Below are positions 52,901 to 55,900 of a DNA stretch of 62,474 nt, piece after piece. The DNA lies in the NCBI GenBank assembly GCA_905235515.1, contig CAJOLV010000006.1, forward strand, positions 1 through 62,474, written 5' to 3'. The position numbers are program-made. Each line of letters starts with the position of its first letter. The first letter of the stretch is position 1. This DNA comes from an uncultured Bacilli bacterium. Lineage in GTDB: Bacteria; Bacillota_I; Bacilli_A; RFN20; CAG-826.

Positions 52901-55900
52901 TATGCTTATAACTTCAAAACTAGTGTAATGGAGAACGCTCAACAAAGAATAATAATTCCTTTTTTTCTTAAAAACACTGCAGTTGTTTAACATTTAGCTG
53001 TTTTTTGGTTGAAAAGCTTAAAAACTCAATTAATCCATGTGAAAGTAAATAGCGATAAGTAGCAGTTTTATTGTTTGAAAAAGAGTGCAACAACGCGTCA
53101 ATCTTCAAATAAGTTCTGGGACATTTTCAGGGACAAAATTCAACTATCTAATGTAATGTGTTAAGATAATTTTGCAGCAGGAGCAAGGATATCAAGTTGT
53201 TTCCATTGCGACACCTATGTTGGTTTATCCAAGGAGTGGTGTGCTGCACTTAGCTTAAGTAAATAAAAAGCAGTGAGAGGTTTATGTATGGCTAGAGAAA
53301 TTTTTGATTATAGTAAGTCAAACCCAAACGACTATGAATATTATGGCTTTCATCTAAAAGATGGAAGGTATCATATTGACACAAAGAGACTAAAAAAGCT
53401 TCATTGCGATGGATCTTTTCCTGAAGCTCTTTTTTCAAACCCAAGAAATACACATTATTTTGTTCCGAAGCATAAAAACTATAGTGATTATGCGATAAAT
53501 GTCTTAAGAGAACAACTCAATAGATTAACAAGTGATTGGAACAAAGAATATAAAGATGTAATTAGTAAAATAACAACTCCAAAAGAAGTGATGGAAAATG
53601 TACGAACTGCCGAATTAGCCTATACAACTGATGTTGATGATTTAGATGATATTGCATTTGAATCTTTACGAGCTGGGTTAAGGCGCGAAGCTAAATACAA
53701 TCAGGTTATCAAAAGTATTCATCTTCAATATTTACAGAAAATATTTACCGAATTCTTTAGAACAATCCTTTTAGTTATCAAAGATAGAGGGTATACAGAC
53801 TCAATCGATTTTACATACAAATCATTTTTCTTTTATGTTCAAAATAGGTTTAATGCTGAAACTAAAAGAGCTAACCCGTTGTATAAACTTCCACATTATC
53901 GTTATTTCGACATACTCAATAAGATAGACAATTTTTTAAAGCACAATACAGTCATGTCTTATAACGCTCTTGCAAACAATCCATTTGAAAAAGATGAAAA
54001 AATGAAGAAGTTTCAGGCTAGTTTTGTTTATACAAAAAAAGAAGCGGGGTTTGAATATGAAAATGGCATGTATGCTGGAGATTGGTTAAAAATAGGACCC
54101 ACATTTGTGGATGAGACACTTACTAATCTACAAGAGTTCGCTAATGAATTCTGTGAACTAATGTATGAAGAGAATGCAGATGAAGTTTACTGGAATTCAG
54201 ATGAATCACTTTTAAAAATTCTGAAAGATAATTTCTACGATTTAGTATAAAATAAAAAACGCAACAAATAATCTGGCCTCAGCTATACGGAGGAGGACAA
54301 GATTATGAACAGTTGCTACTCTTCCAGTAAAGTTATGGAAGAAATCAAGTGTCGCATTAAAGACAAGTTCAAAAACCAAGAAAACTTTGGTAAAGAACTT
54401 GGTGCGAGTCGCAAAACCGTGAGTCGAATTTTGAATCATGGTACTGACATCTCCACATTCTTCAGAATATGCAAGATACTTGGTATCGACGGAATATCAA
54501 TCGACTGATATTCCTTTTTTTGTAACCTTTTTAGGGACAAACTCACATTTTATCAGCAGAATTTGCTAAAAATATATAAGTTAACCCAATTTATAAGATA
54601 TAATTGGATTAATATAGATTACTTGTGAGGGAACACTATGAATGTTAAAGTTTATGGTTTAATAGAAGGCCTGATGGTTTGTTGGGATGAAGTTAAAGAT
54701 GCCGCTGTTTACCATGTCCATCTTTTTATTGGTGATTGGAATAGGCGCATGGAAGTAATTAACGGACAGCAAAAAGTTGTTACAGACAAAAAACAAAAAT
54801 TTCAAGAAATTGCTCTCGTAGATGTTGATAGGAATCTTAAATACTATTCTTTTAAGAATTTACCTAGAATTCACGTAAATTTTATGTATAGCATTCATGG
54901 CCGCATTAGAGAAGAAACTGGCTTAGATTATTATTTGTTTGTCGAAGCTGAAGATAGGCAAGGCAAAATAATTGATTCTTCTGATAAAGTGGTGGGAAGA
55001 GTTTCATCGATTGATAATGGTTTTGCCACTGTGGGGTAATTTATGAGTTGGAAAAAAGTTAACTTATTTGAGCATCTTGGAAGCTATGTTTTTATGGATG
55101 AATATGGCTTTTGCCATAGTGAGATAAATGGCATTTTTATTAACGATATTAATTTATCTGACCTGTTTGTATATAACAACGATAGCAAAAGATATGAAAG
55201 AATTAGATTTGGAAACAGAGGGAATTGCACCCAATCTATCGCTGATCTCTTTTCTTTGGATATTGCAAAGAGAAAAAAGACTAATCAACCATACTATAAT
55301 TACGGCTATGGTAATGACTACTTTAGTAACGATCAAGCTGTAAGCGTGAAACCTAAGACCATTAAAGTAAATTTAAGAACATTCTACCATACGACTCTTG
55401 GATATAACGGTGGTGGGGCTCAGGAGCAACATGCTGATGATATTATTGAACTTAATTCAGCAAAAGATGTTAGCAAATATTTTTGCTGGTTTGAAGAAGG
55501 TGCTAGCACATCCTCATTCAAAACGACCATTTTGCCTGAACTCAAAGTAGATGACGAATTGTATCTTGTTGGCGTAGGCAAAGTTAAGGTATCGAATCTT
55601 GTTGAATATCCAAACAAAGATGATGTTGTCTGCGAAGCCGTTGATGTAGAAGGTAAAAAGCAAAAGATTAAAATGGAGTCGGAGGTTTTTTGCTTACCAT
55701 ACAACAAAGCTGTTGACGAATATGAAGATGTTGATAAATCGCTTAATGAATTAAAATTGTCACCTTATGTTATACGCAGTAAGGAACAGAACCATATTTA
55801 TAATATTTATTGGAACAAAATAGAGGAAGCAAGCTGTTATCATGTTATTCTCTACAAATATATTGAGTTAAGAAACAGAAGACGTATTTTGAAAATTGCA

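What a model noticed while it worked through the whole genome (the two positions that open the first line are those of the whole stretch)
53175..54250. Uncharacterised 320-aa protein family with a dedicated upstream three-way-junction RNA: AbiF-like RNA-protein module at [...]
g00438, with no Pfam or PADLOC match, has a HEPN fold and an invariant NFxKH motif. It is preceded by a promoter and an unannotated ~80-nt three-way-junction RNA (GCAGC...GCUGC closing stem, GAGUGG core) that travels with the gene. This is a new HEPN nuclease-RNA pair resembling, but not matching, the AbiF/abiF type III-like system.
Evidence so far: The model (pLDDT 93) ranks HEPN or HEPN-like proteins in the top 8 of 48,161 chains (Z 7.1-6.3; calls 229, 234). 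N215, F216, K218 and H219 are invariant in 62 homologs; none of them matches Abi_2 or a HEPN family in Pfam. The full RNA precedes all 18 of 18 loci from 100% down to one at 38% identity that kept the closing stem, with compensatory changes in two inner stems over 10 distinct copies; the core (G/A)GAGTG(G/A) is upstream in 23 of 25 genome loci down to 28% identity, against 1 of 25 in a control stretch. No Rfam match. Present in 28 of 401 RFN20 genomes.
(Added by a program. Inside this text positions count along the whole contig: contig position 1 is position 1 of the stretch shown here. "Call 12" and the like, gene names such as g00115 and contig names such as C1 are that model's own, and its searches are not shown. 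The text may have been shortened before it was handed on; [...] marks where a part breaks off. The agent that wrote the report below was given it as the finding of a first reader that could run no searches.)

Follow-up and report, generated by a model that had tools for sequence, protein, structure and literature searches.

The report
New HEPN toxin with partner RNA
An uncharacterised bacterial gene whose protein is predicted to have the fold of RNA-cutting toxins is preceded by a conserved Y-shaped RNA that matches no Rfam family, and the protein likely binds this RNA through a small front domain, so the pair is likely a new anti-phage toxin kept in check by its own RNA.

Summary
Real, and stronger than first read. 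The 320-aa ORF models as a HEPN-like homodimer (top 8 of 48,161 chains HEPN or HEPN-like, Z 6.3-7.7; dimer 0.78 vs control 0.00). It keeps K218/H219 (82 and 81 of 83) but no canonical Arg. The 76-nt three-way junction covaries in all four helices (10 of 19 pairs, tree-aware), starts at the predicted transcript start, and precedes only this family (10 of 10 strong RNA-first hits; one orphan copy seen). In a third clade the RNA is followed by a terminator (12 of 12), the AbiF layout; the window's clade has none (0 of 21). New here: 22 loci in several lineages lost the RNA, and their proteins lost N-terminal K33 and R53 (52/52 with RNA; 1/18 and 2/18 without) while keeping NFLKHN. So the N-terminal domain likely binds the RNA, but the RNA is not an obligatory antitoxin. 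Not AbiF or AbiV by sequence. No activity or expression data. Four look-ups found no earlier scan note on this pair.

The parts
53118..53135 (+). Two GGGACA direct repeats upstream of the promoter; likely operator of the downstream HTH protein (inferred)
   Evidence: present upstream in 20 of 21 window-clade loci, 4 of 67 others
53159..53167 (+). Extended -10 box (TGn-TAAGAT); predicted transcript start about 53173-53174, at the first base of the RNA
   Evidence: position conserved in 51 of 59 loci vs 8 of 59 control
53173..53248 (+). Three-way-junction RNA (P1, P2, P3a, P3b), no Rfam match
53211..53242 (+). Conserved core arm: RCC-UAUR-[variable hairpin]-RGAGU-GGY; likely protein-binding site (inferred)
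   Evidence: invariant columns; kept in all three protein clades
53275..53280 (+). Shine-Dalgarno-like GAGAGG
53288..54250 (+). 320-aa protein: N-terminal domain plus HEPN-like helical bundle, predicted homodimer
53288..53497 (+). N-terminal domain (aa 1-70) with K24, T32, K33, R53, T55, Y57; likely RNA-binding surface
   Evidence: residues co-lost with the RNA; folds alone at pLDDT 81
53483..54175 (+). HEPN-like domain (aa 66-296)
53930..53947 (+). N215-F-L-K218-H219-N220 motif, in the register of R-[NDH]-x3-H but without the Arg; predicted catalytic loop
   Evidence: residues 217-223 lie at the predicted dimer interface
54305..54508 (+). 67-aa XRE-like HTH gene, conserved neighbour in the window's clade only; accessory
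   Evidence: weak HTH hits below cut-off; cluster c3 in 17 loci
54491..54539 (+). Terminator-like hairpin after the HTH gene and a third GGGACA box before the next operon

Best explanation
This is likely an abortive-infection toxin module in which a HEPN-like protein, predicted to be a dimeric RNase, likely binds the Y-shaped RNA at the start of its own transcript through a basic N-terminal domain and would be restrained by it. Shown: the RNA structure (covariation), its dedication to this gene family, its place just after a -10 box, a terminator behind it in one clade, the HEPN-like fold, and the co-loss of K33/R53 with the RNA. Inferred: direct binding; RNase activity with K218 (perhaps with R158 of the partner subunit) standing in for the missing Arg; that binding both neutralises the protein and lowers its synthesis, as RCd22 does for AbiF; release on phage infection. 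The RNA is one of several brakes: a terminator (distant clade), a hairpin over the ribosome-binding site (middle clade), an HTH regulator (window clade). It was lost only in the clade that has the hairpin.
For: Covariation: 18 of 20 pairs with two-sided changes, score 0.583 vs 0.205 shuffled and at most 0.150 slid; 10 of 19 pairs significant against a tree-based null, no non-structure pair significant; 5 of 9 on an unfitted MAFFT alignment. A model built only from 20 middle-clade copies finds the window at 40.7 bits. RNA-first scans of 151+151 genomes: all 10 non-own hits of 43 bits or more lie directly before a family member. Terminator between RNA and start codon in 12 of 12 distant-clade loci vs 1 of 12 controls. 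K/R at 33 in 52 of 52 proteins with RNA and 1 of 18 without; at 53, 52 of 52 and 2 of 18; T32 49 of 52 and 2 of 18; T55 42 of 52 and 1 of 18; conserved positions retained 64% in the N-terminal domain vs 92% in the HEPN part. RNA-less rows are not one clade (5 changes, at least 2 forced by strong branches; AU p 0.00025; tree from residues 68 on). Homodimer: score 0.78, best control 0.00, runs agree in at least 90% of contacts, pLDDT 87; mark reached by 20 of 30 solved pairs and 1 of 23 single chains. Neighbours include a Mokosh-like helicase (12 loci), type I/II/III restriction genes, CBASS cyclase, Lamassu, Uzume, Tmn, dGTPase, AbiL, integrases. Patchy: 14 of 400 and 15 of 251 genomes; two same-genus genomes have the flanking rlmD but not the module. 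Precedent: AbiF and AbiV (10.1101/2025.04.15.648962; 10.1101/2024.05.05.592566).
Against: No Arg at the canonical position in 83 of 83 rows; that Arg is required in KEN and PrrC (PMC3710099) and in AbiV. All Z scores are under 8 for a helical bundle, and the dimer may pass by likeness to solved HEPN dimers. 22 loci lack the RNA, none is broken, all 18 aligned keep NFLKHN, and dN/dS is 0.08-0.22 in 6 informative pairs vs 0.02-0.15 in 11 pairs with RNA: the RNA cannot be an obligatory antitoxin there. No terminator in the window's clade (0 of 21) and in only 2 of 33 middle-clade loci, so a free small RNA is not predicted there without processing. L042 lacks the RNA yet keeps the basic patch. The binding patch is in a separate domain from the KH loop, unlike AbiF, where the RNA blocks the active site. 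Defence neighbours were counted without a background control. P1 and P2 covariation rests on an alignment fitted to the model.
Confidence: 0.5

Rival explanations
1. Autoregulatory leader only: the protein binds the RNA in its own 5' leader to limit its synthesis, but the RNA does not block the enzyme; the toxin is switched on by a phage component.
For: RNA sits at the transcript start with no terminator in the window's clade (0 of 21). It was lost only in the clade whose ribosome-binding site is covered by a hairpin (30 of 30 with RNA, 18 of 19 without; shuffled 43% and 30%; window clade 0 of 16). The binding patch is apart from the KH loop. AbiD1 has a structured 5' UTR controlling translation (introduction of 10.1101/2025.04.15.648962).
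Against: In the distant clade a separate terminator lies 96-179 nt past the core and I saw no conserved alternative pairing by eye, which fits a discrete RNA. In the window's clade the RNA does not cover the ribosome-binding site.
Confidence: 0.27
2. The RNA is a cofactor or phage sensor of a ribonucleoprotein: its variable arm detects infection or is needed for defence, rather than acting only as a brake.
For: The P3b arm varies from about 11 to about 90 nt with a conserved multi-stem insert in the distant clade while the core is fixed. In AbiV the upstream RNA is needed for phage resistance (10.1101/2024.05.05.592566).
Against: Genes without the RNA stay under purifying selection. The variable arm is fully paired and shows no guide-like single strand in the window copy.
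Confidence: 0.1
3. The protein is a catalytically inactive HEPN-like or non-HEPN helical RNA-binding regulator with no toxin or defence role.
For: No canonical Arg; Z under 8; MtlR-type HEPN proteins often lack the motif (PMC3710099).
Against: K218 and H219 are kept in 18 of 18 RNA-less proteins and 52 of 52 others, so they serve something other than binding this RNA; HEPN chains fill the top 8 ranks; defence-rich, patchy loci; three different brakes on expression; HEPN families without the Arg but with the His exist (PMC3710099).
Confidence: 0.1
4. The RNA is a metabolite-sensing riboswitch that happens to control this gene.
For: Three-way junction with a conserved internal loop at the transcript start; one orphan copy (L022:2649-2718) about 190 nt before an unrelated gene.
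Against: 10 of 10 strong RNA-first hits precede this one family; protein residues are co-lost with the RNA; the orphan is followed by a short reading frame that looks like a deleted gene start.
Confidence: 0.03

Closest known systems
AbiF/AbiD (Pfam Abi_2 PF07751) with abiF RNA (Rfam RF03085); C. difficile AbiF-RCd22 (10.1101/2025.04.15.648962)
   Same: About 300-aa HEPN dimer; promoter, structured RNA, then gene; in the distant clade also a terminator before the ribosome-binding site; RNA-protein partnership.
   Different: No sequence or profile match. abiF is a 33-37-nt hairpin, two copies in RCd22; this is a single 76-150-nt junction. AbiF has RNxxAH; this has xNFLKH. AbiF RNA blocks the active site (PMC12737573, PMC13064643); here the co-evolving patch is in an N-terminal domain.
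AbiV (HEPN_AbiV PF18728) with abiV2 RNA (10.1101/2024.05.05.592566)
   Same: HEPN dimer with an upstream RNA; motif ends in KH (RNHKSKH); a basic N-terminal segment matters.
   Different: No PF18728 match; AbiV is about 200 aa and keeps a required Arg (R91); its RNA is about 296 nt with a small binding hairpin.
Type III toxin-antitoxin systems ToxIN/AbiQ, CptIN, TenpIN
   Same: RNA upstream of a toxin gene in one transcript, terminator between them (distant clade).
   Different: Those use tandem pseudoknot repeats and MazF-like toxins (recalled); here a single junction and a HEPN-like fold.
HepS, solo HEPN anticodon nuclease of prophage Gifsy-1 (PMC13043305)
   Same: Single-gene HEPN defence; weak structural match over 152 residues (Z 5.2); a possible model for the RNA-less lineages.
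   Different: Canonical Rx4H, tetramer, activated by a tail protein; the passages read mention no partner RNA.

Membership tests
HEPN superfamily | Four-helix HEPN fold | tested here: met
   Ranks 1-8 of 48,161 are HEPN or HEPN-like, Z 7.7-6.3, rmsd 3.9-5.4, 114-137 aligned; all under Z 8. Nearest named Atlas clusters are HEPN_RiboL-PSP at 0.82-0.83, a lead only.
HEPN superfamily | Rx4-6H catalytic motif | tested here: not met
   His kept (81 of 83), polar residue kept, no Arg at 214 in any of 83 rows; Lys218 in 82 of 83. Arg-less HEPN families are described in PMC3710099.
HEPN superfamily | Homodimer with the motifs at the interface | tested here: met
   Predicted only: 0.78 vs best control 0.00; residues 217-223 in the interface.
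HEPN superfamily | Metal-independent RNase activity | not testable with these tools
   Needs an assay.
AbiF/AbiD (Abi_2) | Match to PF07751 | tested here: not met
   No hit for the protein or 82 homologs; profile-profile probability 0.1% against 22 Abi_2 proteins; one of the 22 scores 16.8 bits over the first helix.
AbiF/AbiD (Abi_2) | abiF RNA motif RF03085 upstream | tested here: not met
   No hit at this locus or in the genome at E 1 nor in 33 related loci. Positive control was weak: 23.9-25.3 bits, under the 37-bit cut-off, beside one Abi_2 gene.
AbiF/AbiD (Abi_2) | Structure like PbAbiF (8VZ6) | tested here: inconclusive
   Not among the 50 rows shown; this does not exclude it.
AbiV | Match to PF18728 and R91-type Arg | tested here: not met
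   No Pfam hit; no Arg. No AbiV gene was found in 200 genomes for a direct comparison.
Type III toxin-antitoxin system | Dedicated non-coding RNA upstream of the toxin gene in one transcript | tested here: met
   transcription itself was not observed.
Type III toxin-antitoxin system | Intrinsic terminator between RNA and gene | tested here: inconclusive
   12 of 12 in the distant clade, 0 of 21 in the window's clade, 2 of 33 in the middle clade.
Type III toxin-antitoxin system | Tandem repeats of the RNA unit (ToxIN type) | tested here: not met
   Single copy per locus.
Type III toxin-antitoxin system | RNA neutralises the toxin by direct binding | not testable with these tools
   Binding is supported indirectly; repeated loss of the RNA argues against obligatory neutralisation.
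Metabolite riboswitch | Occurs before several unrelated gene families of one pathway | tested here: not met
   10 of 10 strong hits precede this family; one orphan copy; only 30 candidates per genome were scored.

The most novel reading that the evidence does not exclude
A third, independent origin of an RNA-controlled HEPN toxin (after AbiF and AbiV), in which a previously undescribed RNA-binding domain docks a three-way-junction RNA away from the active site and controls a non-canonical Lys-His RNase allosterically, with the RNA's hypervariable arm acting as an exchangeable phage sensor; lineages that lost the RNA show the step back to a solo HEPN defence protein.
Probability: 0.2. Interest if true: 0.85.

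Novelty: new variant of a known kind. Interest (0 to 1): 0.7.

Why it matters
Only two HEPN toxins with an RNA partner turned up in my searches (AbiF, the proposed ancestor of Cas13, and AbiV). A third family with an unrelated RNA shape, an Arg-less motif and a separate RNA-binding domain would show that HEPN nucleases have recruited RNA partners repeatedly, which bears on how RNA-guided nucleases arise. Natural RNA-less lineages name the binding residues (K33, R53) in advance, so the test is short. It also offers a new compact RNA-protein pair and a candidate anti-phage system of uncultured gut Bacilli.

Tried and rejected
Foldseek against PDB and viral models: nothing at E 0.001. PDB sequence search with the 83-row profile: two weak hits, a TetR-like regulator (E 0.004) and S15 (E 0.37), taken as chance. 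N-terminal domain alone: no chain at Z 2 or more among 48,161; this shows neither that the fold is new nor that it differs. Longer fusion forms: none among 4,180 candidates of 670-2000 aa, weak evidence; one GNAT fusion lacking the N-terminal domain was seen. No RNA holder listed in sequencing runs. Core-pattern scan of viral contigs: 120 stretches; 100 scored with the model, best 29.8 bits inside a phage coding sequence, rejected as chance. Model hits at L041:8458 (inside a dehydrogenase gene), L258 and L259 (22.8-24.6 bits) rejected. No second copy of the RNA in the own genome, in G402 or in 5 genomes of RNA-less loci (no positive control in that call, incomplete genomes, 150 candidates scored each). 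No match in plasmids or GenBank phages (one distant query). GGGACA is not enriched window-wide (11 vs 11.8); only its position is conserved. A loose regex called four RNA-less loci positive (L026, L033, L075, L081); overruled by the models and by eye. Literature: 6 full-text searches found no description of this family or RNA. The alignment files of Fremin and Bhatt (PMC8040213; 2 of 8 held supplements, plus 3 files too large) could not be searched, so the RNA may be one of their unnamed candidates. A pattern scan for the distant-clade RNA in viral contigs was not obtained.

Full report
Observation. The ORF 53288-54250 encodes 320 aa and is the first gene after rlmD. It has no Pfam family above cut-off; 82 homologs have no shared Pfam family, and 83 aligned members share no PADLOC or NCBIfam family. 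The family has 114 members at 90% clustering by single-sequence search and 226 representatives at 50% clustering. It is patchy: 14 of 400 genomes of the phylum draw, 15 of 251 of the order, 1 of 350 in the class of a Clostridia-labelled record, that one being the centre itself. Two same-genus genomes match only the rlmD end of the region, so the module is accessory.

Protein. The model (pLDDT 92.7) has a small N-terminal domain (1-65) and a helical bundle (66-296). VIA ranks HEPN or HEPN-like chains 1-8 of 48,161 (Z 7.7-6.3, rmsd 3.9-5.4); LsoA, a Cas nuclease-crRNA complex, MtlR and HepS follow at Z 5.2-6.0 among unrelated bundles. Each Z is under 8, so the case rests on the enrichment, on the motif at the end of helix 204-219, and on the dimer. 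The motif is x-N-F-L-K-H: K218 in 82 and H219 in 81 of 83 rows, and no Arg at the canonical place in any row. PMC3710099 (passages read) says that Arg is needed in KEN and PrrC but lists families with His and no Arg. A homodimer is predicted (0.78, best control 0.00; at least 90% contact agreement; pLDDT 87; mark reached by 20 of 30 solved pairs and 1 of 23 single chains). Residues 217-223 touch 154, 158 and 161 of the other copy; R158 is invariant in the 85 closer homologs but not in the distant clade (23 of 83). The pass may reflect likeness to solved HEPN dimers.

RNA. The window copy folds as a three-way junction but is not exceptional alone (z -1.66). A covariance model built from 20 middle-clade copies, without the window's clade, gave 58 matches in 93 sources: 56 in front of the gene (window 40.7 bits), one orphan and one false hit. 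On 48 distinct copies 18 of 20 pairs show two-sided changes and 86.8% of cells pair, against 65.5% shuffled and at most 47.9% slid. With my own tree-based null, 10 of 19 pairs are significant (2 in P1, 2 in P2, 2 in P3a, 4 in P3b) and no other pair is; on an unfitted MAFFT alignment 5 of 9 pairs of P3a/P3b are. P1 and P2 rest on the fitted alignment. The fixed part is RCC-UAUR-[hairpin]-RGAGU-GGY. A -10-like box lies 40-62 nt before the core in 51 of 59 loci against 8 of 59 controls, so the RNA likely begins the transcript. Rfam has no match in the window or in 33 related loci.

Dedication. RNA-first scans of 151 family and 151 class genomes gave 10 non-own hits of 43 bits or more, all directly before a family member, two of them frameshifted; two weak hits were spurious. 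At least 7 of the 10 look like loci already in hand and only 30 candidates per genome were scored, so this tests exclusivity, not sensitivity. One orphan copy exists (L022:2649-2718).

Three clades, three brakes. I sorted 88 loci (12 duplicates, L054 with a rearranged upstream region, L081 cut by a contig end, and loci without the gene start were left out). Window clade, 21 loci: all have the RNA, none a terminator, 20 have GGGACA boxes, and an HTH gene usually follows (cluster c3, 17 loci). Distant clade (W-N/H-F-L/I-K-H motif), 12 loci: the same core with a longer, covarying insert (recognised by pattern and alignment, model scores at most 18.6 bits) and an intrinsic terminator before the start codon in 12 of 12 against 1 of 12 controls. 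Middle clade, 55 loci: 33 with the RNA, 22 without; a hairpin covers the ribosome-binding site in 30 of 30 and 18 of 19 loci that have one (shuffled 43% and 30%; window clade 0 of 16), with a loop containing AGG, GGA or GGG in 22 of 30 and 17 of 19.

The natural experiment. The RNA-less loci are not one clade: on a tree of residues 68 onward, 14 such rows among 35 need 5 changes, at least 2 forced by strong branches, and the AU test rejects one clade (p 0.00025, quick tree). Several keep only a short stem after the promoter (seen by eye). Their genes are whole (0 of 22 broken; 6 distinct broken genes among the 66 with RNA, some possibly assembly errors) and under purifying selection (dN/dS 0.08-0.22 in 6 informative pairs, one near-identical pair at 0, 4 saturated; with RNA 0.02-0.15 in 11 pairs, 6 saturated). 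Among 52 proteins with RNA and 18 without (near-duplicates and broken genes left out), K/R33 is kept in 52 and 1, K/R53 in 52 and 2, T32 in 49 and 2, T55 in 42 and 1, K/R24 in 48 and 4, while N215-N220 is kept in 18 of 18. The N-terminal net charge is positive in all 52 and at most +2 in 17 of 18. The exception, L042, has a rearranged-looking upstream region without a ribosome-binding site and may be a recent loss. This is the best evidence that the N-terminal domain binds the RNA, and also the best evidence that the RNA is not an obligatory antitoxin and that K218/H219 serve another substrate.

Context. Neighbour clusters include a Mokosh-like helicase in 12 loci, serine recombinases and integrases, type I, II and III restriction genes, a CBASS cyclase, Lamassu, Uzume, Tmn, dGTPase and AbiL-like genes (78 and 71 chosen neighbour proteins, no background control). 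Two viral contigs carry the gene; plasmids and GenBank phages gave no match.

Mechanism. Most likely (0.5): an abortive-infection RNase whose N-terminal domain binds the RNA, which restrains it as an antitoxin and probably also lowers its expression, as shown for AbiF-RCd22. Binding, catalysis, neutralisation and phage release are inferred. Rivals: leader-only autoregulation (0.27), cofactor or sensor RNA (0.10), inactive regulator (0.10), riboswitch (0.03).

Comparison. It works like AbiF and AbiV but is a member of neither: no PF07751 or PF18728 match, profile-profile probability 0.1% against 22 Abi_2 proteins, no RF03085 (weak positive control). Papers: 10.1101/2025.04.15.648962, abstract, outline and passages; 10.1101/2024.05.05.592566, parts 1-3 of 6; PMC13064643, PMC3710099, PMC13043305, PMC12737573, passages; PMC8040213, listing and a supplement search that missed its alignment files; the 2025 Cell paper on PbAbiF was seen only as cited. 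Six searches found no description of this family. That rlmD 3' ends are integration hotspots, and the ToxIN features, are recalled.

Verdict. Observation confirmed and extended; a new variant of the HEPN-RNA toxin module, with a likely new RNA-binding domain and named test residues. Interest 0.7.

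Noticed in passing
L013, L020, L022, L025, L033, L034, L041, L080 and other middle-clade loci, last 50 nt before the start codon: Second conserved RNA element: a hairpin that covers the ribosome-binding site and carries an AGGA/AGGG tetraloop; kept when the junction RNA is lost. A hairpin with an AGG-containing loop also lies between RNA and terminator in the distant clade. 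Possible binding or cleavage site.
   Followed up: partly
window 54638-61409: Operon after the HTH gene: three related unknown proteins, an AAA ATPase, a 618-aa unknown, a 245-aa unknown and a radical-SAM activator-like gene; its first genes recur after the HEPN gene in about 10 window-clade loci; no known system assigned.
   Followed up: partly
window 53118-53135 and 54534-54539; window 54305-54508: GGGACA boxes before both promoters and a 67-aa HTH gene between them, restricted to the window's clade; resembles a controller-protein circuit.
   Followed up: partly
L002:6335-10843, L215, L217, L236-L238, L240, L244: A 1,503-aa Mokosh MkoA-like helicase follows the gene in 12 loci of two distant clades; in the distant clade a 76-78-aa XRE HTH gene precedes the RNA in 9 loci. 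May be a recurring island or a functional partner.
   Followed up: partly
L022:2649-2718: Orphan copy of the RNA with its own -10-like box, followed by a short reading frame and a 437-aa protein without Pfam match; a second, complete module lies 1.8 kb downstream.
   Followed up: partly
L047:4764-5960 (P0114): Homolog lacking the N-terminal domain and the RNA, fused to a C-terminal GNAT acetyltransferase.
   Followed up: no
L054:53-120: Gene intact but only the 3' half of the RNA is present, joined to unrelated DNA; near-identical to L053; rearrangement or assembly chimera.
   Followed up: no
   Followed up: no
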